From IMG/VR virus record IMGVR_UViG_3300050343_000261: a stretch of 64,000 bases of DNA; one strand, given 5' to 3'. Made by a program: the position numbers and the translations under genes. Below, piece after piece: positions 16,823-62,591 of this stretch (the first letter of the stretch is position 1; the number at the start of each line of letters is the position of its first letter). The notes under the pieces were generated by a model, which saw nothing but the letters and a program-made list of their open reading frames with translations, searched no databases and had not been told where the DNA came from. Source of the stretch: a virus.

Positions 16823-17953
16823 TCACTTACTTACAACCTCAAATTTAGTAAAAAAATCATCCATTCCATCAAGCAGAAATGTATTATCGAAATCTTTCCA
16901 ATAATATTCACCATCAATTAGTTCACGATTTTCTTCAGGAACAAAATTACCTTCGTGTTCAATTCTTCCTATAGGTAAACTTTGATTTTTCTTGTAGTCT
17001 ATAGGGGTTCCCCACTGCTCAGGAAGACAACCAAATACTTTAGGCCAATAATCATATTGATACTGAAGTATTTTTTTTAGTTTATAATATAAATCATCTG
17101 GCATATCAAATGAATCAGTATTCCATTGATCAATCAAAAGAGTATATCTAATTGCTTTAGATCCTCTATCAGGAGAGTAAGCATTATCATATAAATTTAT
17201 ATCTTTACCAATAAGATTTTCTAATCGACTAAGTTGATTTTTAGTATCGTTCTCCCATATATCTTCCATAACAAAAAATTCAGTTTTACCATATTTTCTA
17301 GTGACATCTATAATATCACTGTAAGGTAAAACTTTTTTTGCATAGAATTCTAAGTAATTTTCTACGGTATGATGTAAACTTTTATCAATTCTAAGGAGAT
17401 CTGCATTGTCCCAATGCCAAACATGTTGTGAAAATAGTCGTCTAACTGGATCTCTAAAAATTCCTACTTGAGTAACATCAAAATGTTCTTGTAGTCTTTG
17501 TATAAACTCTTTGTACAAAGGCAGTCCTACTGTTTTATCGTTTATCGGAAGAATATTTGAGTTTGACCAATCTGCAAGTATCTTGCCCTCATCTGCATGT
17601 TTTTCCCAAATGGATTTATAAAAATTGATATAGTTTTCTATACAAGTATTAGGATCTTCAAGAATATCAAATGCTTTATCTGGCACAAAAATATTTTGAT
17701 CATAATTATCTTCACCATACCTGGCCTGTTTGACACGTGCTAAATGTAATTCAAAAGTTTTCTCCCATCCCCTACGGTCTTTGGCTCCTTTCCCCCAGTT
17801 TTTAGGATCTTTGTAATAATGTTTTTTCCAGATCAATTCAAAATAATGCATCTCTTTTTGAGTACCAAAAAGTAGATGTTCTTTTAGGGAATTGAATAAT
17901 GGAGTTGTTGCTGCCCATCCATAACCAACAAATAGTATAAATTTAGGTTTCAT
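16823..17953 (-). CDS. Sulfotransferase-like protein (family copy 1)
   Basis: VGYGWAATTPL, QKEMHYF, IFRDPVRRLFS, NAYSPDRG...DQW; ATG at 17953 preferred over the TTG at 17965. Confidence 0.75.
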   Translation of the reverse strand: MKPKFILFVGYGWAATTPLFNSLKEHLLFGTQKEMHYFELIWKKHYYKDPKNWGKGAKDRRGWEKTFELHLARVKQARYGEDNYDQNIFVPDKAFDILEDPNTCIENYINFYKSIWEKHADEGKILADWSNSNILPINDKTVGLPLYKEFIQRLQEHFDVTQVGIFRDPVRRLFSQHVWHWDNADLLRIDKSLHHTVENYLEFYAKKVLPYSDIIDVTRKYGKTEFFVMEDIWENDTKNQLSRLENLIGKDINLYDNAYSPDRGSKAIRYTLLIDQWNTDSFDMPDDLYYKLKKILQYQYDYWPKVFGCLPEQWGTPIDYKKNQSLPIGRIEHEGNFVPEENRELIDGEYYWKDFDNTFLLDGMDDFFTKFEVVSK

Positions 17954-17973
17954 TTTTTTATACAATCACTTTA

Positions 17974-19020
17974 CTAGTTATGACAATAATTTTGACCATC
18001 AATCTCTTCATAAAACTCTGGATAAACAAAGTTCTCTTTGTGCTGTAGTCTCCCTATCGGTAAACTTTGATTCTTCTTATAGTCTGCAGGACTGCCCCAA
18101 GTTTCAGGCAATTTGTCATACATTTTTATCCAATCTTCGTACTGAAAACTCATCATTTTTTTGAGTTTATAATATAAATCATCTGGCATATCAAATGAAT
18201 CACTAGTCCATTGGTCTACTAGGTTACTATATCTAATTGCTTTAGATCCTCTATCAGGGCAGTAGGCATTGTCATATAATTCTACTCTATCAACATCAAG
18301 AAGTTTTTGTAGTCGAGCAACTTGGTTTTCAGTATCAGATTCCCATACGTCTTCCATAACAAAAAATTCAGTCTTACCACAAGACATGGCAGTCTTGATA
18401 AGTTTGGCATAAGGAATCTGATGTTCTATGCGATGTTCAAACCAATCTTTTATACTACGTTTACCTATGGGAGCATCTACTAACTCAGCGTTGTCATAAA
18501 GCCAACACTCGTTTGAGAAAAACCTCCTAACAGGATCTCTAAAAATTGCTACTTGAGTAACATCAAAATGTTCATTCAGTTTTGATACAAATTTTTTATA
18601 CCATTCAACACCTTTCTTCCCATGTTGTAGACATTCAGAAGTGGTATTTGTAAAATCTGCCAGTGCTGTCTGGTTGCAACTCTTCTCTTCCCAAAGGCAC
18701 TTGTAAAAATCAATATATCTCTCGATAGTAGGATCATGATGCTCTATGATACTCAATGCTTTTTCTGACACATCGTGCTTCGATATAGCATGAAACTGTA
18801 TCTCACCCTCTCTAAATTTTCTTATTCTTACCTTGAGTTTATCTAAAGATTTTCTCCATAAATGATCATTTGTGAACTTGTAAAAATTCCTTTCAAACAA
18901 CATCTGGGGATAAAACCATTCCTTCTCAATGCCGTAGAGTAAATGTTCTTTGATAGATGCAAACAGTGGAGTTGTTGCTGACCACCCTACTCCAAGAAAC
19001 AAAATAAATTTAGGTTTCAT
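17974..19020 (-). CDS. Sulfotransferase-like protein (copy 2)
   Basis: LGVGWSATTPL, EKEWFY, IFRDPVRRFFS, NAYCPDRG...DQW. Confidence 0.75.
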   Translation of the reverse strand: MKPKFILFLGVGWSATTPLFASIKEHLLYGIEKEWFYPQMLFERNFYKFTNDHLWRKSLDKLKVRIRKFREGEIQFHAISKHDVSEKALSIIEHHDPTIERYIDFYKCLWEEKSCNQTALADFTNTTSECLQHGKKGVEWYKKFVSKLNEHFDVTQVAIFRDPVRRFFSNECWLYDNAELVDAPIGKRSIKDWFEHRIEHQIPYAKLIKTAMSCGKTEFFVMEDVWESDTENQVARLQKLLDVDRVELYDNAYCPDRGSKAIRYSNLVDQWTSDSFDMPDDLYYKLKKMMSFQYEDWIKMYDKLPETWGSPADYKKNQSLPIGRLQHKENFVYPEFYEEIDGQNYCHN

Positions 19021-19053
19021 CCTTTCACAAGCATCATACTAATTTAGGAACGG

Positions 19054-19081
19054 TTGCATTACAATAAATACAGTGTATAAC
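19054..19081 (+). promoter_or_regulatory. Nested sigma70-like (TTGCAT-16-TATAAC) and late-type (AATAAATA, 19063-19070) promoter motifs for the DctP-like gene
   Basis: Both motifs lie in the 77-nt divergent gap. Confidence 0.5.
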
Positions 19082-19097
19082 CATAAGTCAATAAGGC

Positions 19098-20054
19098 ATG
19101 AAAAAAGTACGTTGGGTACATGAACCTATTGAGCTTTTTCGTCGTACTGCTGAGAAGTTTGCTACTGAAATTGAGCGACTTGCCCCTGGGGAGTTTGAAG
19201 TTGAAATTCTGACCCTATCCGAGTTTGCTACACAGTACAACGAAGGCGTAGCAGTTAGCAGGAATGATTTTATTACTCTCATCCGAGAGGGTAAGTTGGA
19301 GATGTGTCAGGTATATACGTCCAAGTTGGCTGAACTCAATTCAGATTTGAGAGTTCTTGATATGCCTTATTTGTTTAGTAGTTATGTTGAGGCAGGTAAC
19401 GCCTTAGCGGGTCAAGTTGGAATTGATCTTTTGAAAGGACTATTCGACGGTGAAGATGCTGTAGTTAGGGGTCTGGGATATACTTTTGCTGGTGGATACA
19501 ATATGATTCCTGCTACTAAAGAAATCGATACAACCGATGATCTGTTAGGGGTTTCCATTCGATGCGACGACAACGAAATTGCTAAAAAAACTTTTGAAGC
19601 AATTGGTGCTACTCCTGTTGCTCTTGAAGTAGAGCAGATCAAACAAGCCGTCACAGATGGCACCGTCGCTGCTGCAGATGCTAACTACACTCAGTTCTTC
19701 GCCAATGAAGGCGATGATGTCATGAAGACTCTCAATGATACACGACATTCTATGAATGTTGCAGCTATTGTTTGTGGCAAAGCGTTTTGGAAGTCTTTGG
19801 ATAAAAGTTCTGGACTTCGTGGCAAAATTGCAGACGCAGCAATTCTTACCGCAGAGGCGGAACAAGAATGGTCTGTTGATGAAATGTTTGACCTTGAGAT
19901 CAAGTGCACGAATGAAGGAATTACCGTCAACAGAATGACTACTGATGAGCGTACTGCATTCATGCAAGCTACTGCTGGATTGTATGATACGATTTCTCTT
20001 CCTGCGGGAGTGGCTGATCGTATTCGCGCCTATGGTACCGATGCAGAAGAGTAA
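19098..20054 (+). CDS. dctP: TRAP transporter substrate-binding protein (DctP family), no signal peptide
   Basis: LIREGKLEMC, RVLDMPYLF, GLGYTFAGGY, DLLGVSIR, GATPVAL, VKYLNDT-like MKTLNDTRHS; starts MKKVRWVHEP with no hydrophobic leader. Confidence 0.8.
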   Translation: MKKVRWVHEPIELFRRTAEKFATEIERLAPGEFEVEILTLSEFATQYNEGVAVSRNDFITLIREGKLEMCQVYTSKLAELNSDLRVLDMPYLFSSYVEAGNALAGQVGIDLLKGLFDGEDAVVRGLGYTFAGGYNMIPATKEIDTTDDLLGVSIRCDDNEIAKKTFEAIGATPVALEVEQIKQAVTDGTVAAADANYTQFFANEGDDVMKTLNDTRHSMNVAAIVCGKAFWKSLDKSSGLRGKIADAAILTAEAEQEWSVDEMFDLEIKCTNEGITVNRMTTDERTAFMQATAGLYDTISLPAGVADRIRAYGTDAEE

Positions 20055-20079
20055 ACTTCTACATAAATTTTGATTTTAT

Positions 20080-20105
20080 AGGCAGGCATAACGCCTGCCT
20101 TTTTT
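20080..20105 (+). terminator. Rho-independent terminator after the DctP-like gene
   Basis: AGGCAGGC-ataac-GCCTGCCT followed by a T-run. Confidence 0.85.
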
Positions 20106-20109
20106 ATGT

Positions 20110-21129
20110 CTAATTTGAGACTCTATCCCAAAAGTAAGTATCAATATATTCAGTGCTGTATAATCCTATGTGATTAGTAAAGTCCACATATAATTTATCA
20201 TCAACTTTACGGTAAGTTCCTTTTTTGATATTTTCCTCACGTATCCCCGTTATGGGCAGTGAGCAATTCCGTTTATAATTTACTGGCACTCCCCATCCTT
20301 CAATATTCCAACCTTCGTAGTGGTGACTCATAATATTTTTATACTCATAATATTGTTCGTCAGTCATATTGAACTGATCTGATGACCATTGATCTTTTTG
20401 ATATTGATATCGGACTGCTTTGTTTCCTCTATCAGGATAATATAAGTTTGGAGCAAACTCAGTCTGTCCAAATAGATCATTCAGCAGTTGTGTTTTTCCT
20501 GCCCATACCTCCTCCATGATTAGAACATGTACAGGACATACGTTTTTTGCATTTTCAATAACTTTATGGTATGGTTGTAAGTCTGCAAATTTTATTTTTG
20601 CTGCAGAATGAATATCACTGTACTCGTTTTTTATATTACCAAGTATCTTCGAGTAATCATTCCATCCATAGTTCAACCAAGACCATGCTCTCCTTACAGG
20701 ATCTCTACATACCATAAGAGCACTGACATCAAATTCTTGACTGAGTGCTTTGAGTAAGCGTTGTGTAAAATCAGCGTCTAGTTGATAGTTACTATTAGAC
20801 CAATCAACTAATACATCTCTACCATACCCTCTATAGTCCCACAGATTTTTGTAATAATCAACATATTTCTGTATAGACCAGTTACTAAAGTCTGGAAAGG
20901 ATGTTACAATTTCCCCAGAGTCTGAACCAAGTCTATGGTACCAGTAGATTTTTTTCTTACACCTAGATAATTTTTCTTCATACTCTGCTGTTTCTATCCG
21001 TTGCGTCATATCTGCTAAGTGATGTTCTTTAGCAACTCCACTCGTGATATGATTACGAACCATCTTGTACAATGGACTAGATGCAGAAAATGCTGTCCCT
21101 AAAAAAAATATAAACTTCGGTTTATTCAT
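20110..21129 (-). CDS. Sulfotransferase-like protein (copy 3)
   Basis: LGTAFSASSPL, AKEHH, CRDPVRRAWS, NLYYPDRG...DQW; start MNKPKF chosen by paralogue alignment. Confidence 0.72.
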   Translation of the reverse strand: MNKPKFIFFLGTAFSASSPLYKMVRNHITSGVAKEHHLADMTQRIETAEYEEKLSRCKKKIYWYHRLGSDSGEIVTSFPDFSNWSIQKYVDYYKNLWDYRGYGRDVLVDWSNSNYQLDADFTQRLLKALSQEFDVSALMVCRDPVRRAWSWLNYGWNDYSKILGNIKNEYSDIHSAAKIKFADLQPYHKVIENAKNVCPVHVLIMEEVWAGKTQLLNDLFGQTEFAPNLYYPDRGNKAVRYQYQKDQWSSDQFNMTDEQYYEYKNIMSHHYEGWNIEGWGVPVNYKRNCSLPITGIREENIKKGTYRKVDDKLYVDFTNHIGLYSTEYIDTYFWDRVSN

Positions 21130-21763
21130 GAAAAGACTTCTTATCACAACTGGACCACAAGGATCAGGCAATCACCTTTTTGCAAGGATATTTAGTTTAC
21201 ACCCAGAAGTTGTAGGGTGGGATTCTCTCAAAGATAATTACTGGGTTCCTAGTGATGAAGAACCTTTTGCAAAATATTGGGTAGACCCGGACCTGCTAGA
21301 ATTTCCTGAAGGAGATTTTTTTCTAGCAAATGTAAGTGTTCCTTTCTTCTATGATGGTGTTAGACAGGTGCCTAAAATTTCGGCAGTTTGTCACCAAGCA
21401 ATGCATCTTGGTTACACACCTGTAGTTGCTATTATTACAAGAGATCAAAATATAAATGCACTTCAACAAGAAAGAGTTGGTGGAGAAGTAACCCTACCGA
21501 TTGCCAAAGGTTACTATAAATCCCTCTTAGAGGATCCATATATTGAAACACATTTCCTATCTCACGAATCTTTTTTCTTGTGGAAGGAAGACTATATCAA
21601 ATACTGTGGGGAGATTCTAAAGTTCCCTGTAACGACCAATGGCATCGACCAGTTTATAACCGGCGATGCCAACGGAAAATATGTAAGTCCCGTCAAAGAC
21701 CATTGGTTAGACGAGACTATTAGAGAAGGTCGTCAGACCTTCAAACAACGGCAAGAGGTGTAG
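21128..21763 (+). CDS. P-loop/sulfotransferase-fold hypothetical protein (GPQGSGNH family, copy 2)
   Basis: LLITTGPQGSGNHLFARIFSLHPEV, IITRDQN; start chosen by alignment with 16142. Confidence 0.75.
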   Translation: MKRLLITTGPQGSGNHLFARIFSLHPEVVGWDSLKDNYWVPSDEEPFAKYWVDPDLLEFPEGDFFLANVSVPFFYDGVRQVPKISAVCHQAMHLGYTPVVAIITRDQNINALQQERVGGEVTLPIAKGYYKSLLEDPYIETHFLSHESFFLWKEDYIKYCGEILKFPVTTNGIDQFITGDANGKYVSPVKDHWLDETIREGRQTFKQRQEV

Positions 21764-22415
21764 CCGTGTTCTGGCGGGAGATCTCCAGAAGATCGGAACG
21801 CATACGCTCAACAAGAGCAAGAACGCGATCCTGAAGTTCCACACTACCTTCAACCAGACGGCTCAGTGAGCGTCCGCCGAGGTTGCTGTGGAAACCTTCA
21901 TCCTTAGCGATGGAGGCGTAACGGGTGGAGATGAACGAATCTTCGACACACTCAGCCATTTCAGACCAGACTGCTTCTGCACGACCTTCAGCAACGAGCT
22001 GATAGGCAGCGAGGGCAGCAGGATCTTGAGCAGCTTCGTACTTCTCAAGCAGGGAAGCACCCTTTGCTTGAGGCTTACCTGCTTCAGCAGCGAAAGCAGC
22101 AGCTACGTCCAGTTCTTCGCCAGTGATATGCTCGATGACTTCCTTGACCATGCGGAAGTGCTTTGCTTCGTCCAATGCCTGCTTGCTAAGAAGCTCCAGG
22201 TCGCGAACGTCGGTGCTAGGGTCGGCAGATGCTACCTGACCAGCAATCGCATACATGTTTTGTGCTTCGTTGACCATGCGGCCACGGAAGTGCTCGACGA
22301 GGTACTCCTCGCTAGGGGCAGAAGCGAAGAAACGACGGACGTTACTACGGGAAGCCTCAAACAGCTCCCTATTACCTTCCTTGATTTTCTTTACGAAATC
22401 GGTTCCAGAAAGCAT
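21741..22415 (-). CDS. Ferritin-like di-iron carboxylate protein
   Basis: Two ExxH motifs (DEAKHF, DEGFHS) plus upstream Glu in MVNEA and VAEG; ATG at 22415 has an AAGGA RBS. Confidence 0.85.
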   Translation of the reverse strand: MLSGTDFVKKIKEGNRELFEASRSNVRRFFASAPSEEYLVEHFRGRMVNEAQNMYAIAGQVASADPSTDVRDLELLSKQALDEAKHFRMVKEVIEHITGEELDVAAAFAAEAGKPQAKGASLLEKYEAAQDPAALAAYQLVAEGRAEAVWSEMAECVEDSFISTRYASIAKDEGFHSNLGGRSLSRLVEGSVELQDRVLALVERMRSDLLEISRQNTATPLAVV

Positions 22416-22434
22416 TGTGGATTTCCTTTCAACG

Positions 22435-22962
22435 TTAGTATTTAGCATAATGAAAAAAATACCTTAGATGTCCTTGAGAAGTAGTTTCTTCTTTTAGTGA
22501 TATCAAATTGTATTGGTATTCTTCAGTAATTTTATTTATCTTTTCAATGTTCCAATCATACCATTGTATCTGATCAATATTAGTATTTGCCCAATCATGA
22601 GCAATACCTGGATTGACCCTAAAAATAATATCTTTTAGAAACAATTTATCTAACATACTAATCTGTTTATCAATATCTTCTTCAGTTCCGAAGTTGATTG
22701 ATCCTAGACAGAGAACAACATCAGCAGGTGGAAATTCATACTCATAGTATTCCTCCAGAGACATATGTAAGTGTGCCTCTTTGTTATATGGATCAATACC
22801 AACTAACCCCGGTATACGGTCCTTGAGGCGGTTGTAACCACATCCTACATCTAATACACTAGATGGGGATAACTTATTGATATAATCGACTACAGAGTCT
22901 CCTGAGTGCTTCAGTTGACCAACATAGTCATCCTTCCAAATGCCGCCAAAATATGACTCCAT
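22435..22962 (-). CDS. Class I SAM-dependent methyltransferase
   Basis: Motif I VLDVGCG, GIDP, ADVVLCLGSINF. Confidence 0.85.
   Translation of the reverse strand: MESYFGGIWKDDYVGQLKHSGDSVVDYINKLSPSSVLDVGCGYNRLKDRIPGLVGIDPYNKEAHLHMSLEEYYEYEFPPADVVLCLGSINFGTEEDIDKQISMLDKLFLKDIIFRVNPGIAHDWANTNIDQIQWYDWNIEKINKITEEYQYNLISLKEETTSQGHLRYFFHYAKY
22439..22445 (-). promoter_or_regulatory. Late promoter CTAAATA for the ferritin-like gene
   Basis: Motif about 24 nt upstream of the ATG at 22415, inside the methyltransferase 3' end. Confidence 0.65.
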
Positions 22963-23183
22963 TATTTTTTAGTTGTTTTACCAACCCCAGTTTTAGGTTC
23001 AGGGAACTGTCCTGCATCTCCAGGCGTTGGAGGACGAAGTTTATGAATTTCCTCTGCCATCAATTGCATCTGCTGACCCATCAGAGAAATACGTGCTTCA
23101 TATGCAACTGATCTAGCAGTTTCATCCGACAGTCTTTTCACATAAATTTGCAAAAGATTTTGCAGTTCTTGTTCTTTTTCCAT
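22962..23183 (-). CDS. Small hypothetical coiled-coil protein
   Basis: MEKEQELQNLL...; TAATG coupling to the methyltransferase. Confidence 0.65.
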   Translation of the reverse strand: MEKEQELQNLLQIYVKRLSDETARSVAYEARISLMGQQMQLMAEEIHKLRPPTPGDAGQFPEPKTGVGKTTKK

Positions 23184-23209: not shown

Positions 23210-23232
23210 ATATATCAGGTTTTTATTTGACC

Positions 23233-52096: not shown

Positions 52097-52103
52097 TATT
52101 TAG
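52097..52103 (-). promoter_or_regulatory. Late promoter CTAAATA for the glycosyltransferase-like gene
   Basis: Overlaps the radical SAM stop. Confidence 0.65.
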
Positions 52104-54192: not shown

Positions 54193-55568
54193 AATACAGT
54201 AACGTTGTACTTGTTTGAGAAATCAATTGCATCAGACCATTCGTTGACCATTGGCATGCCACGAATGTTCAATGATGTATTTAGAAGTACAGGGCAACCT
54301 GTACGCTCATACCATGCCTCTAGAATCGCCCTGAAGACGCTTGAACTGGTCTCGGGCACCGTTTGTACTCTTGCACTGTTATCGACGTGCACGCAGGCAG
54401 GAATCTCGTCTGGACGCTTACATTGATAGACATAAGACATGTATCGAGAGTGCTCTGGCATATCAAAGTAATCTTGACAATGCTCCTCCAGAATTGCGGG
54501 TGCAAATGGTCTAAACTTCTGTCTTTTCTTGATTTCGTTGACTCGATCCTTATTTGCAAATGATCGGGGGTCCGCAATCAAAGAACGGTTACCTAAAGCA
54601 CGAGGACCGTACTCTGCCTTACCATTTGCTATACCACAGATGCCATCCTTCAAAAGAACATCCACAACTGCTTCAGGATCAACTTTACGGTCGATCTTAT
54701 ACCCAGTGTAAGGAGTGAACTCAACTTTCTTACCTGATGCCAATAGAGCAGCACCAAGTGCCCCACCAGCGTCTCCTGGGTTGGGCATGATCCACAAGTT
54801 GCATTTTTTGCGGAGTTTGGTGTTAGCAACACAGTTCAAGGCAACACCACCACCATAGCAAACGTTATCGCTGTATCGGAGTGCAATATCAAAGATCTTA
54901 TTCAACTCTTCTTCTAGAACGACCTGTGCACTAGCAGCAACGTCCTCTTTGTTCTCAATATCCAGACGACAACCTCGATGGTTGTTTTGAGACAAAAGTT
55001 TCCTTACCTCATCTACATGTTTGGGTTCACCAAACGCTGCCATACCCATAAAGATATATTCCTCGTCTAAAGGACGAAGACCTGCCCATCCAGTCAAAGC
55101 AGAGTACCAAAGACCTATAGATTTTGGATATCTACGAGACCAACGTTTTTTATAGACAGCACTACCACCAACCATCTCTGCAGTCCATACAGAACTACAA
55201 TCCCACTCACCAATACTATCTACAACAACACATGCTGCTTCATCAAAGCATGAAGTTTGAAATGCCGCTGCAGCATGCGACATATGATGGGGGAAACCGA
55301 TATTTGGTCGTAACGCTAGATGTCTCCGTTTACGCCAATGGTTTTGTCCAGCAAAAAATTGCCTGACACGTTTTGGGATCTGCTGCTCATAAAAAGAAAC
55401 TACGTCATCACTTGTGTTGAGTGATTCGCCATAAAAAGCAAGTTCCTCACATAATTTTTTATCGTGTTTTTTCTTAGAGTATCTTTCGCTGTGTGCAGCA
55501 AAGATAATCTTGTTATTACGCACAACCGCCAGTCCGGCGTCGTGAAACCCCTCAGAGAATCCAATCAT
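54189..55568 (-). CDS. NodU/CmcH-family carbamoyltransferase
   Basis: GFHDAG, HHMSHAAAAF, DSIGE, GGGVALNC, EYGPRALGNRSL, FRPFAP, LLNTSLN. Confidence 0.93.
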   Translation of the reverse strand: MIGFSEGFHDAGLAVVRNNKIIFAAHSERYSKKKHDKKLCEELAFYGESLNTSDDVVSFYEQQIPKRVRQFFAGQNHWRKRRHLALRPNIGFPHHMSHAAAAFQTSCFDEAACVVVDSIGEWDCSSVWTAEMVGGSAVYKKRWSRRYPKSIGLWYSALTGWAGLRPLDEEYIFMGMAAFGEPKHVDEVRKLLSQNNHRGCRLDIENKEDVAASAQVVLEEELNKIFDIALRYSDNVCYGGGVALNCVANTKLRKKCNLWIMPNPGDAGGALGAALLASGKKVEFTPYTGYKIDRKVDPEAVVDVLLKDGICGIANGKAEYGPRALGNRSLIADPRSFANKDRVNEIKKRQKFRPFAPAILEEHCQDYFDMPEHSRYMSYVYQCKRPDEIPACVHVDNSARVQTVPETSSSVFRAILEAWYERTGCPVLLNTSLNIRGMPMVNEWSDAIDFSNKYNVTVL

Positions 55569-55702: not shown

Positions 55703-55732
55703 AATTACCTCAAATGCTTCCTATCTATAATA

Positions 55733-56623
55733 TCACTTTCCCCAAGATTCGGGCAATTTGCCAAAATACTTCTTCCAATTAGAGTAGCAAGGTTCCATCA
55801 TAATCTTTGCTTTATCTTTGACATGATCTGGCATATGCATTACGTCAGATTCCCACTGATCGTTCAAATATTGGATATGTGGAGCACAGGGACCGAGATC
55901 TGGGACATATGCATTGACATGAGTTTCCTTGATATCCATACCAATAAAACCTGACAGTAGAGAAGTCTCTCCTGCCCAAAAATCTTCCATAATCGTTATA
56001 TGGGTGTTATCATTGCCAAATGCATCTGCCCATTTGTTGTAAAAGTCGATATAGTCAAAATCCATACCAGACTTTAGAAAATGCTCGACAGGTTTGTCTC
56101 TTTTCTGAGCTTGACGACAAGACCACAATCTCCGAATGGGATCTCGGAAAATCATGTGAATTTTTACATCAAAATAACTCTGTAAATGATATGCAAGATA
56201 TTTTATGTACTCTGCATCACAATATCCATTAGGGTTGCTAAAATCAGCAACTGCTTTATAATCATCTTTGATATTATCCCAATGTTTCAAGTAATATTGA
56301 ACATACTTCGCCAAATCAAATGGAGGACCCCAAAAATACTCAATTTCTTCCTCAGTCCATTTTCCAGCAACGTACTTAGATTCATGAGTGAAGATTTTGG
56401 GTTTCCGAGTCGTAGTTGACTGCCTGGATGGTCCAAAAAACTTTTTGTAAAACTTTATTCTCTCAAACGTGTTATTATCTCTCTGTAATTGGAGCAACCA
56501 CAGATATCCTTTCTCTTTACGGTGTCCAGCATGACAATAGTTGTTATACCAACCCAAAGTGTAGTATAATGGAGTGGTCCCTGACCATCCAGTTCCTACA
56601 TTCAAAAATAATGTAGGTTTCAT
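55733..56623 (-). CDS. Sulfotransferase-like protein (copy 4)
   Basis: VGTGWSGTTPL, RKEKGYL, IFRDPIRRLWS, NAYVPDLG...DQW. Confidence 0.75.
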   Translation of the reverse strand: MKPTLFLNVGTGWSGTTPLYYTLGWYNNYCHAGHRKEKGYLWLLQLQRDNNTFERIKFYKKFFGPSRQSTTTRKPKIFTHESKYVAGKWTEEEIEYFWGPPFDLAKYVQYYLKHWDNIKDDYKAVADFSNPNGYCDAEYIKYLAYHLQSYFDVKIHMIFRDPIRRLWSCRQAQKRDKPVEHFLKSGMDFDYIDFYNKWADAFGNDNTHITIMEDFWAGETSLLSGFIGMDIKETHVNAYVPDLGPCAPHIQYLNDQWESDVMHMPDHVKDKAKIMMEPCYSNWKKYFGKLPESWGK

Positions 56624-56778: not shown

Positions 56779-56810
56779 ACGACCCACCTCCTGAATTTAT
56801 ATAGTTTACC

Positions 56811-57782
56811 ATGAAACCAACACTTCTTCTAAATCCCGGCGTTGGTTGGGCAGCAACCAGTCCGATGCACTACACAGTGACGATGGACAACCAATATGTT
56901 CACATGGGGCATAAGAAAGAGAATTGGTACCTCAAAGCACTTTGTATGCAGGATGAGGAGCATGAACGTGCTTTTGATCTAATGTGGAACGGTGCTAGTT
57001 ATCAAAAAAGACCAAACGATCATCCGTATGGCGAATATTTGTCGAAAAGTAACCGATTTATCAAAAATACATCTTTAGATGGGCTTATGGTGAACCCAAA
57101 GTCACTCGATGCGTACATTGAATACTTTTTAGGGCATTGGGAAAACATCAAAGACGAATATCAGGGAGTTTGCGACTTCTCCAACGCAAATTTTAGTCTT
57201 CCTAGAGAATTTTTGTTTGAAATTGCTCCAAAATTGCAGGAACACTTCAAAGTCAAGATCTTGATGGAGTTTCGTGACCCTGTTAGGCGCTATTTTTCGG
57301 AAGTTGGTAGTTTATTGACCCGAAAAGTCGATGTTGTAGATTCTTGGTGCGGAGATTTTACCGCAGCAGCCTTTGCAAAGAGACAAAATCACCGAAAATT
57401 GTTTTTTCACAACCTAAAACAGAATAGAGTGCCAGATCATTGCGATTATATCGCTGGTTACCTAAAATATTGCGATGCTTTTGGTAAAGATAACGTTTAT
57501 CCAGTGGTGATGGAGGATTTTTGGGATCCTGAACAAGAAAGAGAGCAACTTGGCGCTATTTCTGAGTTTTTTGAGTACCCAATTACAGAACTTCATCAAA
57601 ATGTTTATGTCCCAGACATGGGAAGTAAGGCACCACACCACGATTACCTAAAAGATCAGTGGATAAGCGACGTTGAAGACCTTACTGAAGAAGATATCCG
57701 AGTGGCAGGCATGTATATGGGTAAGTTTTATAAAGATTGGAAGCACGTTTTCAAAACTCTACCTAAAGCATGGGGAAAATAG
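56811..57782 (+). CDS. Sulfotransferase-like protein (copy 5)
   Basis: PGVGWAATSPM, KKENWYL, EFRDPVRRYFS, NVYVPDMG...DQW. Confidence 0.75.
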   Translation: MKPTLLLNPGVGWAATSPMHYTVTMDNQYVHMGHKKENWYLKALCMQDEEHERAFDLMWNGASYQKRPNDHPYGEYLSKSNRFIKNTSLDGLMVNPKSLDAYIEYFLGHWENIKDEYQGVCDFSNANFSLPREFLFEIAPKLQEHFKVKILMEFRDPVRRYFSEVGSLLTRKVDVVDSWCGDFTAAAFAKRQNHRKLFFHNLKQNRVPDHCDYIAGYLKYCDAFGKDNVYPVVMEDFWDPEQEREQLGAISEFFEYPITELHQNVYVPDMGSKAPHHDYLKDQWISDVEDLTEEDIRVAGMYMGKFYKDWKHVFKTLPKAWGK

Positions 57783-57835
57783 AGTGCTATCAAGTCACCA
57801 TCATGACTTTGAGTATGATGGCCAAACTATGTTAC

Positions 57836-57843
57836 GATAAATA
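57836..57843 (+). promoter_or_regulatory. Late promoter GATAAATA for the SGNH gene run
   Basis: One mismatch from consensus, about 40 nt upstream of 57886. Confidence 0.6.
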
Positions 57844-57885
57844 CGGCAGAATCCCCGCATTACTGCCTAGGAAATTTGATCTATT

Positions 57886-58671
57886 ATGAATCTTGTTACT
57901 TTTGGATGCTCTTGGATGTTCGGAGTGGGCACTAACTACACTCCAGGGATGAGTAAGATTGAATATAAACAAGGTAAAGACAATCATGACGCAAAGTTCG
58001 GAGACAAATATGCCTTTCGTAAGCATCTAGCAGATAAGTGGGAGTGCACGAACGAAAATTTCGCTCAAATGGGGTCTTCCAATGAGCGTCAGTTTCGGTT
58101 TGCTGAGAGATACTTTGGTAAATTAGATCCAAGTGAGTACAAAAACACAGTTGTCCTCTGGGCATTGACTGTTACAACCCGCACTGAGGTGTTTTCTAAG
58201 GAAAAGGGGAAGTATATCAACGTTCTTTTTGGTAATGGATGGGGTGCTGACACCCAAATGGAGCGTGCTAAGTTTGATAGCAAGGCACATTTAGCACATC
58301 ACTATGATCACAAGGAGAAAGTAGAACTACTTGGACACAAATGCCGCTTCTGGAACCGCTTTTTTGAAGCAGCAGGTATTGAAAATTATTGGTTTGATAC
58401 TTTCAATCATCATGAATACCCCAAACCAATCGATAGGATGCTCTTTGACGATCAACCTAGGCGGGATCTGATGTCTTTGAAGTGTGCAGACTTACAATTC
58501 TCCCCAAAAGCAGATGGATATCACGTCTCGCAGTTCTCTTCTTCAGATTCTACTCGCATTCAATATCTAGAAGAACAGAAACAAGTCAATCCTTTCTCTC
58601 AACATCCCACTAGAGAGTATCATGAGTGGATAGCAGATAAGATTGATGCTGAGGTTGCTCGATTTAGATGA
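57886..58671 (+). CDS. SGNH-hydrolase-like protein (copy 2)
   Basis: VTFGCSWMFG, GSSNERQFR, SQHPTREYH. Confidence 0.75.
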   Translation: MNLVTFGCSWMFGVGTNYTPGMSKIEYKQGKDNHDAKFGDKYAFRKHLADKWECTNENFAQMGSSNERQFRFAERYFGKLDPSEYKNTVVLWALTVTTRTEVFSKEKGKYINVLFGNGWGADTQMERAKFDSKAHLAHHYDHKEKVELLGHKCRFWNRFFEAAGIENYWFDTFNHHEYPKPIDRMLFDDQPRRDLMSLKCADLQFSPKADGYHVSQFSSSDSTRIQYLEEQKQVNPFSQHPTREYHEWIADKIDAEVARFR

Positions 58672-59507
58672 CTCGGTTACTGACTTTAGGATGTAGTTGG
58701 ATCGCTGGTATTGGTTCTAAGTATGATGCTGATAAACCTTGGGATAAAGAAACATATAAAAGCAACTCTCATAGCGATGACAACTATAAAAATGCATTTA
58801 GAACTATTCTATCATCCAAATATGGATTAGAAAACGTCAATATTTCTTCTGGCGGGGCATCTAATAGTAGTCAGTTCCGCAAACTTAGAAAATATTTACA
58901 TCTGAATGATCTAAATGATACCATTGTTCTATGGGGAGTAACTTCTATCTACAGGATGGAAGTATTTTTCAATCATGGAAAGTCATTTTCATGCTTTCAA
59001 CCCGGTCAAGAGAAACGTAAACATATTCATGGACCTGATTGGTGTGGACCAAAGGAGTATTTCCGCCAACACTTCAATAAACGTCTCGCCGGTCGGACGT
59101 TAGCAGACGAAGTCCATTTTTGGCAGAAGTATTTTGAGTTACTCAACGTTCCTCAAATATGGTTTGACACACTGAATGTCAATGATTATGAAGGTGGTGT
59201 ATATAAACCATTTGATGAATTGCCATATGACTGCAATCAGGACTTACTAAGTCAGTTGGCATACAAGAATGGATGGGATCCAATGGATGATAAGTACCAC
59301 TTGTCTGATTGGAAAGCAGATTGTGATCGTGTTGACTTCTTGAAGAAAAAAGGAGTTCTCAATCCATATTCATTTCACCCAACTATACAAGGACATCAAC
59401 AAATTGCAGAGATCCTTGACCCTATACTAACCAAGTGCTATACTTCATATAAGGAATCTAATAAAGATCCCAAACCTTACAAAACTTTTTGGCGTGACGT
59501 TCATTAG
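58668..59507 (+). CDS. SGNH-hydrolase-like protein (copy 3)
   Basis: LTLGCSWIAG, GASNSSQFR, SFHPTIQGH. Confidence 0.75.
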   Translation: MTRLLTLGCSWIAGIGSKYDADKPWDKETYKSNSHSDDNYKNAFRTILSSKYGLENVNISSGGASNSSQFRKLRKYLHLNDLNDTIVLWGVTSIYRMEVFFNHGKSFSCFQPGQEKRKHIHGPDWCGPKEYFRQHFNKRLAGRTLADEVHFWQKYFELLNVPQIWFDTLNVNDYEGGVYKPFDELPYDCNQDLLSQLAYKNGWDPMDDKYHLSDWKADCDRVDFLKKKGVLNPYSFHPTIQGHQQIAEILDPILTKCYTSYKESNKDPKPYKTFWRDVH

Positions 59508-59511
59508 TTCT

Positions 59512-59859
59512 ATGGCAGACGACACTATTACCTTTACTGGTACTGACTCACTAGATATTCAAATCCCTGAAGATGCTGTACAAGCAGCTCAACAAGTGCC
59601 TTTCACATTCGGAGGCATTGGGGGACCGGGACAGGATTGCATTTCGTTTTCTATCTCTAACGATGATGGTCATCCCGGTTATTACAATACTGGAAAAATT
59701 GAAGTCTGGGATTTCATTGCAGATCAAGAACTCGACTTCTTTGCTGGTAATGTTGTAAAATACGTTAGTCGTGCAGGTAGGAAATCTGGCAACTCCCGTC
59801 AAGATGACCTACAAAAAGCAAAGACCTACATACAGAAAATGATTGATCTTTCGGCATGA
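59512..59859 (+). CDS. DUF3310 / T7 gp1.7-like domain protein
   Basis: HPGYYNTGKIEVWDFI, FFAGNVVKYVSRAGRK, DDLQKAKTYI. Confidence 0.85.
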   Translation: MADDTITFTGTDSLDIQIPEDAVQAAQQVPFTFGGIGGPGQDCISFSISNDDGHPGYYNTGKIEVWDFIADQELDFFAGNVVKYVSRAGRKSGNSRQDDLQKAKTYIQKMIDLSA

Positions 59860-60485
59860 TCTTTGCGGGTTGTTCGTATACATGGGGTGATGAACTAGAC
59901 AACCGTCTAACAGAACGGTTCATTCATCATGTCCAGAAACACTACCAGTGTGAAGTTACAGATCTGTCCCAATGTGGGGGATCTAATGACTACATCGTAA
60001 ATAGGGCACTGCATGAAATCAAGACCAATGGGGTTCAACCTACGGTCTTACAACTTACAGTGCCTACCCGTATTGAGTTCTACGCAGAAGATGGTGCTCA
60101 CCTCTTCTGCCCTTTTAGGTGGAGGCAAGATAATTCTAATTTCAACTTCCGGTCAGGTAATAAGAAGAAAGTACCACATGCTCTAGCAATGTCTTCCTAC
60201 TACCGTTGGGTATGGAATAAGACACATGGGGCAGAAAATTTATACAAAAACTTGCTTCTTTTTGAACAATTTGCTAAAGTACATGAAGTTCCCTACATTG
60301 TACTATTCAATGATTGTGATCCTTTAGAAGATATGGGGTATTGGCGAAACCTAATGGATGACCCGAAAATGCACCATATTTACGAGGATATTCTGAAGAT
60401 GATCCAGACCCCTGGTCAAGGTCACCCAAATGCAGATCAACACAAAGTCATTGCTGACTACATTATAGAACATACTAACTTCTAA
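59856..60485 (+). CDS. SGNH-hydrolase-like protein (copy 4)
   Basis: FAGCSYTWG, GGSNDYI, GHPNADQH. Confidence 0.75.
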   Translation: MIFAGCSYTWGDELDNRLTERFIHHVQKHYQCEVTDLSQCGGSNDYIVNRALHEIKTNGVQPTVLQLTVPTRIEFYAEDGAHLFCPFRWRQDNSNFNFRSGNKKKVPHALAMSSYYRWVWNKTHGAENLYKNLLLFEQFAKVHEVPYIVLFNDCDPLEDMGYWRNLMDDPKMHHIYEDILKMIQTPGQGHPNADQHKVIADYIIEHTNF

Positions 60486-60488
60486 ATA
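60482..60488 (+). promoter_or_regulatory. Late promoter CTAAATA
   Basis: Overlaps the upstream stop, about 25 nt before 60514. Confidence 0.6.
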
Positions 60489-60513
60489 TTTTTTATAATC
60501 CACAGAGGTTTCC

Positions 60514-60783
60514 ATGAAAAAATGTGAAAAGTGTGGTGCTACCTGGATGGAGGGTGTCCTCTATTGGCAAGGTACCGGCAAACCTGGTAAAGATATTGAC
60601 CTTGCTGGTTTAGTATGCAATAACCTTAGAGAAGATGATCCTGATGCTGTAAAGTGCATCAATACCTCTAAAGGAAAACCCGGTGGTGATACCTGGGAAT
60701 ATCGTCGTGGTTTTATTGATGGTGCTTTCACATCCCTCAAGAACCAACGTGAAGAAATGAGGGATAACTTTGGAGACCTTTGA
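60514..60783 (+). CDS. Small Cys-containing hypothetical protein
   Basis: CEKC...LAGLVCN...CIN, a possible metal-binding motif; GAGG RBS. Confidence 0.75.
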   Translation: MKKCEKCGATWMEGVLYWQGTGKPGKDIDLAGLVCNNLREDDPDAVKCINTSKGKPGGDTWEYRRGFIDGAFTSLKNQREEMRDNFGDL

Positions 60784-61615
60784 TGGGGGTGCTGACGTAA
60801 CAGATCTTCGCCCAGTCCTAATCGTCCTTGGTGGTGCATGGACTCTTGCAGAAGATGACCCTAAAACATCATGGGCACAGATCTTAGCAGACAAATATAA
60901 TTGGCGATTGAAAAATATATCTTTCAAACGGGTATCTAACGATACTCTCCAATACCACTTGAATAAAGTAATTATTCGTAAGTTACCTGAGTATAAAAAA
61001 AGAGGCATCAAAGTCGCTGGTATTATCTTTGAAATTCAGCATATTTCAAATAAAGATGATTTTGAAGCTGCCTCAAGGGTTTTATTCCTTGGTATGACGG
61101 ATGAACAAAAGTTCAACCAACAATATTGGCACAAAATTGATGTTGATGATTACTATAAAAACCATCATAACTTCTGGGTATGTTATGACCGATTCAAATA
61201 TCAAATCGCAGTCTTTGATAAACTTCTAAAACTTGAAGGTATTCCTAACTATTGGTGGGATGGTATCGATAATCATATCCACCCTGGTGGTCGCCTCCTA
61301 CTCAATTCCATGCTAACTGAACTAACATGGAATGAATGTCACTCACCTGACTCTAATCTAGAAACTGAAGGATATGGTCTCCGTTGGATGAATGAAGAAA
61401 CCTCAGAACGTGTCAAATTTTGTGTAAAAACTAATCTACTTCATACCTTCAAAAATCAACTTCACCCTACTCCTAAAGCACATAAACGTATCGCTATGGT
61501 AATGGAATACTCAATGCATGATATCTTCAAGTCTCCATACTATTATCTCACAAAAAATAATATGAGACAGTCCATCTACGATGATGAACATCGTAAAGAA
61601 ACAGATGACAAATAA
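60770..61615 (+). CDS. Degenerate SGNH-like protein (copy 5)
   Basis: LGGAWT replaces GCSW (nucleophile Ser lost); VSNDTL and LHPTPKAH retained. Confidence 0.6.
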   Translation: METFDGGADVTDLRPVLIVLGGAWTLAEDDPKTSWAQILADKYNWRLKNISFKRVSNDTLQYHLNKVIIRKLPEYKKRGIKVAGIIFEIQHISNKDDFEAASRVLFLGMTDEQKFNQQYWHKIDVDDYYKNHHNFWVCYDRFKYQIAVFDKLLKLEGIPNYWWDGIDNHIHPGGRLLLNSMLTELTWNECHSPDSNLETEGYGLRWMNEETSERVKFCVKTNLLHTFKNQLHPTPKAHKRIAMVMEYSMHDIFKSPYYYLTKNNMRQSIYDDEHRKETDDK

Positions 61616-62591
61616 ATTTCCTTTGTTATTTGGTGTCGGCACTCCACATTCTGCCACCACACCTTTATTATACACACTATCTCATGATAACCATTATTGC
61701 CACTCTTGGAGGGCACAACAGCATGGTTACCTTACTTTCATGCAAGGTCGTAATAATCAAGAATCTGCACTAAAACGTTATCATCATAACTTAGATAATC
61801 CATCTAATGCTAAACTACCTACACTCGTTTCTAATAACCCCCTCCTAGGTACAGTTGATATTCAATCCGAAAAGGACTTTATGTCCCCACCATTTACTAT
61901 AGAAAAATACATATCCTATCATCAAAAACAATACAACAATATAAAACCACATTATCATTCTGTAGTAGATTTCAATAACTCTAACGCATCCCTTCAATTA
62001 CCTTTCTTACAACATATCAAACCATCCTTAGATCATTACTTTGATATCAAAGTCATCATGATCTTCAGAGACCCTATCAAACGCCTTTGGTCTCATATCA
62101 ATTACCTGATCAATGATCTGCAAGCATTTGAACTTTCATCTCAAAGAGAGGGTTTCAACCGTCGCGGTGCTTGGATGTCTGATCTCGACAGAACACCTAA
62201 GAAATACTTCAAAGATACTACTGATGCCCTACTAACAAAAGGCATTGATGAACATACAGCATACGCTAAACTATTCAAAACTTGGTCCACCGCTTTCCCA
62301 GAGAGGGTTCACGCTATTATCATGGAAGACCTCTGGAATCCCTCAACATCATCCTTACAAGATCTCTCAGACTTCTTAGAGTTTCCCCTACATACCCTCC
62401 ACCAAAACGCTTACTACCCTGACAAAGGTATCAATGCTCCCAAATACCCTTACCTCCAGGATCAATGGTCCTCCGATACCGATCCACTAACCTTAGATAT
62501 TATCAACAAAGCAAAGCATATCCTTGCACCTGTCTACCAAGACTGGAAAGAAACATTCGGTGACCTCCCCACATCATGGATTCATCCTTAG
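61605..62591 (+). CDS. Sulfotransferase-like protein (copy 6)
   Basis: VGTPHSATTPL, IFRDPIKRLWS, NAYYPDKG...DQW. Confidence 0.72.
   Translation: MTNKFPLLFGVGTPHSATTPLLYTLSHDNHYCHSWRAQQHGYLTFMQGRNNQESALKRYHHNLDNPSNAKLPTLVSNNPLLGTVDIQSEKDFMSPPFTIEKYISYHQKQYNNIKPHYHSVVDFNNSNASLQLPFLQHIKPSLDHYFDIKVIMIFRDPIKRLWSHINYLINDLQAFELSSQREGFNRRGAWMSDLDRTPKKYFKDTTDALLTKGIDEHTAYAKLFKTWSTAFPERVHAIIMEDLWNPSTSSLQDLSDFLEFPLHTLHQNAYYPDKGINAPKYPYLQDQWSSDTDPLTLDIINKAKHILAPVYQDWKETFGDLPTSWIHP

What the first reader, a model, noticed from the sequence alone, without database searches (positions are those of the whole stretch)
16823..62591. Six-member sulfotransferase-fold family that has lost the PAPS-loop lysine
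All six copies share G-x-[GAP]-[WFH]-[AS]-[AG]-[TS]-[TS]-P, a KE..[YF]-like motif (degenerate in copy 6), RDP[VI][RK]R..S, and a family-specific N.Y.PD.G...DQW.[ST]D tail. Canonical sulfotransferases have G-x-x-K/R-x-G-T-[TS], where the basic residue contacts the phosphosulfate; here it is W, F or H. The two GPQGSGNH proteins also look sulfotransferase-like without the basic residue. A different donor or activity, or a non-catalytic binding role, is possible. Eight such genes in 64 kb is a striking expansion.
Basis: partly seen in the sequence, partly recalled or inferred. Interest (0 to 1): 0.7.

Follow-up and report, generated by a model that had tools for sequence, protein, structure and literature searches.

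The report
Cyanophage sulfotransferase-like family without loop lysine
An uncultured marine cyanophage carries six old copies of a virus-only branch of sulfotransferase-type enzymes in which the normally essential cofactor-loop lysine is replaced by tryptophan, phenylalanine or histidine, so their chemistry may differ from textbook sulfotransferases.

Summary
The window is the structural region of a T4-like cyanomyovirus.

An AlphaFold model of copy 5 matches solved sulfotransferases across its whole length (Z 17.5 to 3rnl, 16-17 to NDST1 and 3-OST). Profile searches align the loop W, F or H with the PAPS-loop lysine.

The loss is a trait of the whole clade:
- About 100 clusters at 50% identity belong to it.
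- Of 173 distinct copies in 75 marine viral contigs, none has K or R in the loop.
- There are up to nine copies per locus.
- No relative was found in prokaryote genomes.

The clade sits as one well-supported branch next to lysine-bearing bacterial sulfotransferases.

The 3'-phosphate motif (RDPxxRxxS), the loop threonines and a Lys-Glu pair at the catalytic-base position are kept. The helix residue at +4, Glu or Asp in the bacterial relatives, is a near-fixed Arg here.

My best reading, at about even odds, is active PAPS enzymes whose positive charge has moved. They probably decorate a glycoconjugate together with the neighbouring carbamoyltransferase and SGNH-like genes. A changed donor or a non-catalytic role is not excluded.

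The two GPQGSGNH proteins resemble sulfotransferases only weakly, at fold level.

The parts
16823..17965 (-). Copy 1 (c1), 380 aa as listed. Loop GYGWAATTP. Has a C-terminal extension shared with c2 and c3.
   Evidence: Groups with c2 and c3 in a 23-row subclade. 99% DNA identity to the G001 orthologue, with 10 non-synonymous and 0 synonymous differences.
17974..19020 (-). Copy 2 (c2), 348 aa. Loop GVGWSATTP.
   Evidence: 50% identical to c1. dN/dS 0.48 against G001, from an alignment with gaps.
20110..21171 (-). Copy 3 (c3), 353 aa as listed; likely start at MNKPKF near 21129. Loop GTAFSASSP, with Phe at the lysine position.
   Evidence: dN/dS 0.17 against a divergent G001 counterpart.
55733..56623 (-). 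Copy 4 (c4), 296 aa. Loop GTGWSGTTP. Lies head-to-head with c5 next to the carbamoyltransferase; this divergent pair is the most widely conserved arrangement.
   Evidence: dN/dS 0.068.
56811..57782 (+). Copy 5 (c5), 323 aa. Loop GVGWAATSP. This is the copy that was modelled.
   Evidence: AlphaFold2 model, pLDDT 80.6, pTM 0.83. Sulfotransferase fold, Z 17.5. dN/dS 0.16.
61581..62591 (+). Copy 6 (c6), 336 aa. Loop GTPHSATTP (His); KE replaced by QQ, followed by H. Present or absent depending on the strain.
   Evidence: The only copy near the Pfam Sulfotransfer_3 threshold (26.3 bits against a cut-off of 27). Missing from the 93%-identical genome G001. A contig in run X17 joins 61579 to 62594 without it.
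16142..16822 (+). GPQGSGNH protein 1, 226 aa. A separate family with a P-loop-kinase or sulfotransferase-like fold.
   Evidence: Model pLDDT 84.4. Best fold matches are sulfotransferases at Z 10.0-7.5, then kinases at about 7. No profile similarity to sulfotransferases.
21128..21763 (+). GPQGSGNH protein 2, about 211 aa from the MKRL start.
   Evidence: dN/dS 0.04 against G001.

Best explanation
The six genes belong to a virus-restricted, anciently diversified clade of sulfotransferase-fold enzymes. The clade descends from lysine-bearing bacterial Sulfotransfer_3/Sulfotransfer_1-type sulfotransferases, whose closest solved structures are heparan-sulfate 3-OST and NDST and 3rnl.

On the branch leading to this clade several changes occurred:
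- The PAPS-loop lysine was replaced by an aromatic residue: mostly W, less often F, H or Y.
- The residue four places after the 3'-phosphate Arg on the binding helix became a near-fixed Arg. It is Glu or Asp in the bacterial relatives.
- A roughly 25-residue insert, N.Y.PD.G..AP....L.DQW.SD, is fixed in the clade and absent from most lysine-bearing relatives.

Everything else needed to hold 3'-phosphoadenosine 5'-phosphosulfate and to deprotonate an acceptor is kept. That includes the loop Thr-Thr, RDPxxRxxS and the Lys-Glu pair at the catalytic-base position.

I infer that most copies still bind PAPS supplied by the host and still transfer sulfate. In this reading the positive charge comes from the relocated Arg, possibly stacked on the aromatic ring, and from the Lys beside the catalytic Glu.

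The many deep paralogues probably differ in acceptor position. They have no export signal, so they would act in the infected cell. They sit beside baseplate and tail-fibre genes, together with a carbamoyltransferase, SGNH-like proteins and a radical SAM protein. The likely job is decorating a glycan or glycoconjugate, on the host surface precursor or on the virion.

Shown: fold, homology, loss of lysine, clade-wide conservation, copy expansion and gene neighbourhood. Inferred: PAPS use, the role of the Arg, and the acceptor.
For: - **Fold and homology.**: Z 17.5 to 16.0 for fifteen sulfotransferase entries over residues 1-323; family profile hits 3rnl at E 2e-8 and 3-OST-5 at 2e-4; aromatic-loop profile against the lysine-type profile gives probability 100%, E 4e-53, with W aligned to K.
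- **The relatives are true sulfotransferases.** 10 of 12 lysine-type members hit Pfam Sulfotransfer_3 (best 5e-15). Further relatives are annotated sulfotransferases of marine bacteria with PF13469/PF00685.
- **Clade-wide trait.** Among 119 near-full-length members the loop residue is W 71, F 17, K 12, H 7, Y 6, R 1, S 1. In 173 distinct viral copies it is W 110, F 27, H 9, Y 7, none K or R, and 20 truncated.
- **Single origin.** The tree shows one aromatic clade (98 SH-like support) with the lysine types outside it and one reversal to R.
- **Retained residues in the viral copies.** R 169/172, P 171/172, S 167/172, loop T 134/153, K 134/153 and E 137/153 of the KE pair, E 171/171 of MExxW.
- **Relocated charge.** The +4 position is R in 153/172 viral copies. 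It is E in 104 and D in 5 of 111 bacterial lysine-type relatives and variable in viral lysine-type intermediates.
- **Purifying selection.** dN/dS is 0.07-0.17 for c3-c5, similar to gp6 at 0.07.
- **No catalytic partner.** The complete related genome has no lysine-type sulfotransferase, so the aromatic copies are not accessory subunits of one.
- **Neighbourhood.** Carbamoyltransferase occurs in 57 of 75 loci, gp6 in 50, the 254-aa protein in 56, and an SGNH-like gene in 35.
- **RNA libraries.** Contigs from RNA libraries cover c4-c6. This is weak evidence because DNA carry-over is possible.
Against: - The loop lysine or arginine is treated as a defining catalytic residue of PAPS sulfotransferases (review PMC11625862). 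From memory, its mutation in studied enzymes nearly abolishes activity.
- I could not read model coordinates, so nothing shows that Arg159 or Lys36 reaches the phosphosulfate.
- The K-to-aromatic and E-to-R changes map to essentially one branch, so their co-occurrence is not independent evidence of contact.
- Five of 84 clade members also lack a basic residue at +4.
- c6 lacks the KE pair.
- The related complete phage genome has no APS kinase, and the host's supply of PAPS was not tested.
- None of the six copies reaches a Pfam sulfotransferase threshold.
- c1 and c2 look less constrained: 10 non-synonymous against 0 synonymous changes, and dN/dS 0.48.
Confidence: 0.5

Rival explanations
1. 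The same fold is kept but the donor or the chemistry has changed. The aromatic residue and the new DQW-containing insert reshape the donor pocket. The proteins would then use another 3'-phosphorylated adenine nucleotide or another leaving group. Alternatively they would use PAPS for a reaction other than simple sulfate transfer, as retinol dehydratase and the CurM/OLS sulfotransferase domains do.
For: - A strictly conserved aromatic residue, rather than a random replacement, sits at the lysine position.
- It was gained together with a family-specific insert rich in Asp, Gln and Trp, and with the N125/N127 changes near the acceptor site.
- The phage has no PAPS-making gene.
- The fold is known to support other net reactions; retinol dehydratase and the CurM and OLS domains appear among the structural matches.
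Against: - Retention of both 3'-phosphate ligands, the loop threonines and the Glu at the base position fits PAPS best.
- The known fold members with unusual net reactions still use PAPS and, from memory, keep the lysine.
- No alternative donor is suggested by any neighbouring gene.
Confidence: 0.2
2. The proteins are non-catalytic pseudoenzymes. They keep nucleotide or glycan binding but do not transfer anything, acting for example as binders, chaperones or virion-associated lectin-like parts.
For: - A residue regarded as essential is lost.
- The genes lie among structural genes.
- Copy number varies between strains.
- c1 and c2 look less constrained.
Against: - Pseudoenzymes usually decay at several catalytic positions. 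Here only one changed, and the putative base Glu, the neighbouring Lys and the whole 3'-phosphate motif stay near-invariant across about 170 divergent copies.
- Many deep paralogues per genome under purifying selection fit a set of enzymes with different specificities better than a set of binders.
Confidence: 0.2
3. The resemblance to sulfotransferases is a chance match of short motifs, and the proteins have an unrelated fold.
For: Pfam, NCBIfam and PHROGs give no significant family for five of the six copies.
Against: - Full-length structural matches at Z 16-17.5, exclusively to sulfotransferases.
- Profile-profile E 4e-53 to relatives that themselves hit Pfam sulfotransferase models.
Confidence: 0.01

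Closest known systems
Bacterial Sulfotransfer_3/Sulfotransfer_1 sulfotransferases (PF13469, PF00685), e.g. uncharacterised enzymes of marine Gammaproteobacteria, and PDB 3rnl from Alicyclobacillus
   Same: - Homologous over the full length.
- Shared motifs: N-terminal strand-loop-helix G-x-x-X-x-G/A-T-T, KE..[YF] at the base position, DF[ST] strand, VK..hhRDPxxRxxS, Y, and E in the last core strand.
   Different: - The loop K is replaced by W, F, H or Y.
- Position +4 of the 3'-phosphate helix is R instead of E or D.
- TTP instead of TT followed by a variable residue, and DFSNxN instead of DF[ST]xxY.
- An extra C-terminal insert carries the PD.G and DQW.SD motifs.
- Found only in viral contigs so far.
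Heparan-sulfate 3-O-sulfotransferases and the NDST1 sulfotransferase domain (PDB 1vkj, 3uan, 1t8t, 1nst, 8chs)
   Same: - Best structural matches after 3rnl: Z 16-16.7, rmsd 3.2-3.6 over about 233 residues.
- The RDPxxRxxS spacing is identical.
- These enzymes use a Glu as catalytic base (review PMC11625862).
   Different: Animal Golgi enzymes with the canonical loop lysine. Sequence identity is only 10-16%. Their acceptor-binding clefts are not conserved here.
NodH and other glycolipid or oligosaccharide sulfotransferases that work alongside carbamoyl- and acetyl-transferases
   Same: Tailoring-type sulfotransferases of the Sulfotransfer_3 kind. The window likewise places a carbamoyltransferase and SGNH-like genes beside the sulfotransferase-like copies.
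   Different: NodH keeps a basic loop residue, an RxG motif according to PMC11625862. No chitin-oligosaccharide synthase context was shown here. The comparison rests on gene content only.
Fold members with atypical roles: retinol dehydratase (1x8j), the CurM/OLS sulfotransferase domains (4gbm, 4gox) and SULT4A1 (1zd1)
   Same: They show that this fold can be used for reactions other than plain sulfation, or can have no known activity. All appear among the structural matches.
   Different: They match less well (Z 12-13 or lower). They are not reported to carry an aromatic residue in place of the loop lysine; that point is from memory and was not tested.

Membership tests
PAPS-dependent sulfotransferase superfamily (PF13469/PF00685 type) | Alpha/beta fold with a central parallel sheet carrying a strand-loop-helix (PSB) and a strand-turn-helix (3'-PB) | tested here: met
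   - c5 model: strand 4-9, loop 10-15, helix 16-26; strand 147-154, helix 157-170.
- Z 17.5 to 3rnl, 16.7 to NDST1, 16.6 to 3-OST.
PAPS-dependent sulfotransferase superfamily (PF13469/PF00685 type) | Conserved Lys (or Arg) in the PAPS-binding loop that stabilises the phosphosulfate | tested here: not met
   - The residue is W (c1, c2, c4, c5), F (c3) or H (c6).
- It aligns with K of 3rnl and of lysine-type relatives.
- None of 153 viral copies with the loop present has K or R.
PAPS-dependent sulfotransferase superfamily (PF13469/PF00685 type) | 3'-phosphate-binding Arg and helix Ser (RxxxxxxxS) | tested here: met
   RDP[VI][RK]R..S is present in all six copies. Across the viral copies R is 169/172 and S is 167/172.
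PAPS-dependent sulfotransferase superfamily (PF13469/PF00685 type) | Catalytic base (Glu or His) on the loop after helix 1 | tested here: inconclusive
   - The KE motif is present in c1-c5 and aligns with KE of the lysine-type relatives. E is 137/153 in the viral copies.
- c6 has QQ followed by H.
- Equivalence to the base of 3-OST or NDST rests on sequence position only. No coordinates could be inspected.
PAPS-dependent sulfotransferase superfamily (PF13469/PF00685 type) | Score above the Pfam gathering threshold | tested here: not met
   - Only c6 matches, at 26.3 bits against a cut-off of 27.
- 15 of 84 clade members match Sulfotransfer_3 weakly, best 6e-6.
PAPS-dependent sulfotransferase superfamily (PF13469/PF00685 type) | Binds PAPS and transfers sulfate | not testable with these tools
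   This needs binding and 35S-PAPS assays, or a co-fold with the cofactor. The tools offer no PAPS ligand and no access to model coordinates.
Sulfotransferase-like fold, for the two GPQGSGNH proteins | Structural and sequence relation to sulfotransferases | tested here: inconclusive
   - The top 11 structural matches are sulfotransferases (Z 10.0 to 7.5), but P-loop kinases follow at Z about 7.
- Foldseek gives no match at E <= 0.001.
- hhalign against the lysine-type sulfotransferase profile gives probability 1.2%.
- The Ser of the 3'-phosphate motif is an invariant Gln.

The most novel reading that the evidence does not exclude
The aromatic-loop clade is a new functional class on the sulfotransferase scaffold. 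In this reading it is a set of phage enzymes that no longer perform lysine-assisted sulfate transfer. Instead they use a different donor or carry out a different group transfer or elimination. Up to nine specialised copies per genome would build a heavily decorated glycoconjugate or modified tail-fibre surface in infected marine cyanobacteria.
Probability: 0.2. Interest if true: 0.8.

Novelty: new variant of a known kind. Interest (0 to 1): 0.6.

Why it matters
Sulfotransferases are recognised, and largely defined, by a basic residue in the cofactor loop. This report describes a large, well-conserved natural clade without that residue.

- If the proteins are active, they show a second way to build the active site, with an Arg on the 3'-phosphate helix and an aromatic residue in the loop. 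Profile-based annotation would then be missing a whole branch of sulfation enzymes.
- If they are not sulfotransferases, they are a new activity on an old fold.

The biology also matters. The family occurs in widespread uncultured cyanophages: the sequence was found in marine and viral metagenome runs from at least eight studies. It is multiplied up to nine-fold next to baseplate and tail-fibre genes and is linked to carbamoyl- and SGNH-type tailoring genes. This points to an unstudied surface-glycan or virion modification system in ocean phage-host interactions.

Tried and rejected
**Searches that found nothing or little**
- NCBIfam and PHROGs gave no useful family for any of the eight proteins.
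- Megablast of the region 16000-23000 against cultured phages found nothing.
- tblastn of c2 and c5 found only the uncultured 'Marine virus AG-345-D19'. The GPQGSGNH protein found nothing there.
- Two pattern scans of 185,579 prokaryote species genomes found no relative. The patterns are narrow, so this is weak evidence that the family is virus-only.
- APS kinase was not found in the related complete genome G001.
- No lysine-type sulfotransferase was found in G001 with PF13469 or with the A6 profile.
- Literature searches for cyanophage sulfotransferases and for sulfotransferase pseudoenzymes found nothing specific. A search on Prochlorococcus cysC and PAPS did not settle host PAPS supply.

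**Checks that were uninformative**
- A look for T4-type late-promoter motifs upstream of each copy was not informative.
- RNA-library contigs cover c4-c6, but such libraries can contain DNA. I do not count this as proof of transcription.

- Model coordinates are not exposed, so the positions of Trp13, Arg159 and Lys36 relative to the cofactor site could not be measured.
- Complex prediction was not used. It offers no PAPS ligand and scores only protein partners.

Full report
**What the window is**

ORFs on the minus strand from 90 to 16039 encode the T4-type major capsid protein gp23, scaffold, prohead protease, portal gp20, tail tube and sheath, large terminase, gp15 and neck proteins. Further along lie gp8-like and gp6 baseplate proteins and very large fibre-like ORFs of 1430, 2376, 955 and 2748 aa.

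The capsid protein is 87% identical to 'Marine virus AG-345-D19' and about 76% identical to cultured Synechococcus and Prochlorococcus myoviruses. A 192-kb IMG/VR genome, here called G001, is rated complete. It is 92-96% identical to the window over the aligned stretches and carries psbA and psbD. The window therefore comes from an uncultured T4-like cyanomyovirus.

The six copies sit at 16823-17965(-), 17974-19020(-), 20110-21171(-), 55733-56623(-), 56811-57782(+) and 61581-62591(+). All carry G-x-[GAP]-[WFH]-[AS]-[AG]-[TS]-[TS]-P, RDP[VI][RK]R..S and the DQW tail. KE..Y is present in c1-c5 and reads QQHGY in c6. They are 24-50% identical to c1, with 30 invariant columns. The two GPQGSGNH genes are also present and are 38% identical.

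**They are sulfotransferase-fold proteins**

Sequence libraries almost miss them. Only c6 touches Pfam Sulfotransfer_3, at 26.3 bits against a cut-off of 27, and NCBIfam and PHROGs give nothing.

Structure and profile methods are clear:
- An AlphaFold2 model of c5 built on 16 sequences has pLDDT 80.6 and pTM 0.83.
- Foldseek returns only sulfotransferases at the top.
- VIA-align gives Z 17.5 to 3rnl (rmsd 3.5, 229 residues), 16.7 to NDST1 and 16.6 to 3-OST-1 and 3-OST-3. All 50 listed entries are sulfotransferases.
- A profile of 84 family members hits 3rnl at E 2e-8 and 3-OST-5 at 2e-4 through the RDPxxRxxS region. In the weak N-terminal alignment GvgWsaTT pairs with GAAKCGTS.

**The missing lysine is a trait of the whole clade**

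An exhaustive profile search found 101 clusters at 50% identity with E below 1e-30, and 1324 with E below 1e-3. Among 119 near-full-length hits the loop residue is W 71, F 17, K 12, H 7, Y 6, R 1 and S 1.

The twelve lysine-bearing hits score lowest, and 10 of 12 of them hit Pfam Sulfotransfer_3, best 5e-15. Their own relatives are annotated sulfotransferases of marine bacteria. The two groups align end to end at probability 100% and E 4e-53, with W opposite K.

A FastTree phylogeny rooted on the most canonical lysine types puts all 84 aromatic-loop proteins in one clade with 98 SH-like support. It shows one reversal to Arg and repeated switching among W, F, H and Y inside the clade. This is a quick tree and some long branches meet, so details inside the clade are unsure.

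The window's copies fall in three deep subclades: c1-c3 together, c4 with c6, and c5 alone. Apart from c1 and c2, the paralogues are old.

**Distribution**

A scan of IMG/VR returned 75 loci. These hold 206 family ORFs, 173 of them distinct, with 1 to 9 copies per locus of at most 21 kb. None of the 153 copies with an intact loop has K or R.

- Cultured phage records lack the family, apart from AG-345-D19.
- Two pattern scans of prokaryote species genomes found no relative. This is weak negative evidence.
- The ESM Atlas places c5 nearest to viral hypothetical clusters and then to bacterial sulfotransferase clusters.
- The DNA is present in marine and viral metagenome runs from at least eight studies.

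**What is kept and what changed**

Kept across the viral copies:

| Position | Count |
|---|---|
| Loop Gly | 152/153 |
| Loop Thr | 134/153 |
| Lys of KE | 134/153 |
| Glu of KE | 137/153 |
| 3'-phosphate Arg | 169/172 |
| Pro of RDP | 171/172 |
| Second Arg (+5) | 169/172 |
| Helix Ser | 167/172 |
| Glu of MExxW | 171/171 |

Changed relative to the lysine types:
- the loop residue itself;
- Pro after Thr-Thr;
- Thr22;
- Asn125 and Asn127, giving DFSNxN;
- Met234 and Trp238;
- the residue at +4 after the 3'-phosphate Arg, which becomes Arg (153/172);
- a C-terminal insert with N.Y.PD.G..AP....L.DQW.SD.

In 111 bacterial lysine-type relatives the +4 residue is Glu in 104 and Asp in 5. In the viral lysine-type intermediates it varies (A, K, R, E, T). 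The textbook pair is thus loop Lys with helix Glu or Asp, and the pair in this clade is loop aromatic with helix Arg.

Residues at +4 and +8 lie on the same face of a helix, and +8 is the Ser that touches the cofactor. An Arg at +4 is therefore a plausible carrier of the missing charge, and an Arg stacked on an aromatic ring is a common arrangement. This is inference only. The change maps to one branch of the tree, and I could not inspect coordinates. From memory, cytosolic sulfotransferases also use a second Lys two residues before the catalytic His. The conserved Lys next to Glu37 could play that part.

**Are the genes functional?**

Against G001, dN/dS is 0.068 for c4, 0.16 for c5 and 0.17 for c3. 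For comparison it is 0.07 for gp6 and 0.11 for the carbamoyltransferase.

c1 differs from its G001 orthologue by 10 non-synonymous and 0 synonymous changes. c2 gives 0.48, from an alignment with gaps. The first cluster therefore looks less constrained, or is diversifying.

c6 is absent from G001 at the matching site. One RNA-library contig joins 61579 to 62594 without it, so copy number varies in nature. G001 has a further copy outside the window with Tyr in the loop and a decayed tail.

Contigs from RNA libraries cover c4, c5 and c6. This is only a hint of transcription.

**Context**

- In the 75 loci the family most often lies with the carbamoyltransferase (57), the 254-aa protein at 51279-52043 (56), gp6 (50), SGNH-like genes (about 30-35) and the giant baseplate or fibre ORF (34).
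- Carbamoyltransferase is a known sporadic cyanophage gene (PMC3037559).
- Iyer and colleagues predicted that bacterial sulfotransferases linked to dioxygenases modify tail-collar or collagen-like proteins (PMC2938197). A protein acceptor on the fibres is therefore an alternative to a glycan.
- None of the copies has an N-terminal hydrophobic leader; each starts directly with the first strand. They would act in the cytoplasm.
- G001 has no APS kinase and no lysine-type sulfotransferase. Any PAPS must come from the host, and the aromatic copies are not helpers of a canonical phage enzyme.

**The GPQGSGNH pair**

This is a separate and very abundant family, with 3718 hits. Its model has pLDDT 84.4. 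The best structural matches are sulfotransferases (Z 10.0 for 4gox, about 9 for TPSTs), but P-loop kinases follow closely at Z about 7. Foldseek finds nothing at E <= 0.001, and profile comparison with sulfotransferases gives probability 1.2%.

The motif fits a Walker-A pattern with Asn in place of Lys. The Ser of the RD..-type motif is an invariant Gln. I treat the pair as kinase- or sulfotransferase-like proteins of unknown role, not as members of the six-copy family.

**Verdict**

Whether it means new chemistry is open.

| Reading | Odds |
|---|---|
| Still sulfotransferases, with relocated charge | about 0.5 |
| Altered donor or reaction | about 0.2 |
| Non-catalytic | about 0.2 |

The remainder covers readings not listed here, including a chance resemblance (0.01). 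Notes from the earlier scan on the same genome supplied the leads on the SGNH-like paralogues and the tailoring-toolkit idea. I checked them only in part.

Noticed in passing
window 61579-62594: c6 is a clean presence/absence polymorphism of about 1 kb. The 93%-identical genome G001 lacks it at exactly this site, and a contig in run X17 joins 61579 to 62594.
   Followed up: partly
window 53350-54192, 57886-59507, 59856-60485, 60770-61615, 62576-63346: A second multi-copy family is interleaved with c4-c6. It has a GCSW / G.SN / HPT..H pattern like SGNH hydrolases but barely registers in Pfam (Lipase_GDSL E 0.15 for one copy). Members occur in about 30-35 of the 75 related loci.
   Followed up: partly
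window 51279-52043 (-): A 254-aa protein with no Pfam match lies next to gp6 and is conserved in 56 of 75 related loci. By eye, its WIDSDIVF and GEDVSFC stretches resemble GT-A glycosyltransferase motifs. This was not tested.
   Followed up: no
window 16823-17965 vs L001: c1 differs from its G001 orthologue by 10 non-synonymous and no synonymous changes (99.1% DNA identity). The neighbouring c3 region is only about 71% identical. This suggests local diversification or recombination in this cassette.
   Followed up: partly
L076 472-1410 (G001 74271-75209): This is a further family member outside the window. It has Tyr at the lysine position (GAAYSGTKP), keeps RDPVRRSYS and has lost the DQW motif.
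   Followed up: partly
window 16142-16822 and 21128-21763: The GPQGSGNH family is very abundant in metagenomes (3718 hits at E <= 1e-3). tblastn nevertheless finds no match in 50,697 deposited phage records.
   Followed up: partly
window 19098-20054 (+): A DctP-type TRAP solute-binding protein (Pfam E 9e-32) sits between c2 and c3. No DctQ or DctM was seen in the window. dN/dS against G001 is 0.34.
   Followed up: no
window 52100-53353 (-) and 54189-55568 (-): A radical SAM protein and a NodU/TobZ-type carbamoyltransferase lie directly beside c4. The carbamoyltransferase accompanies the family in 57 of 75 loci, the radical SAM protein in only 11.
   Followed up: partly
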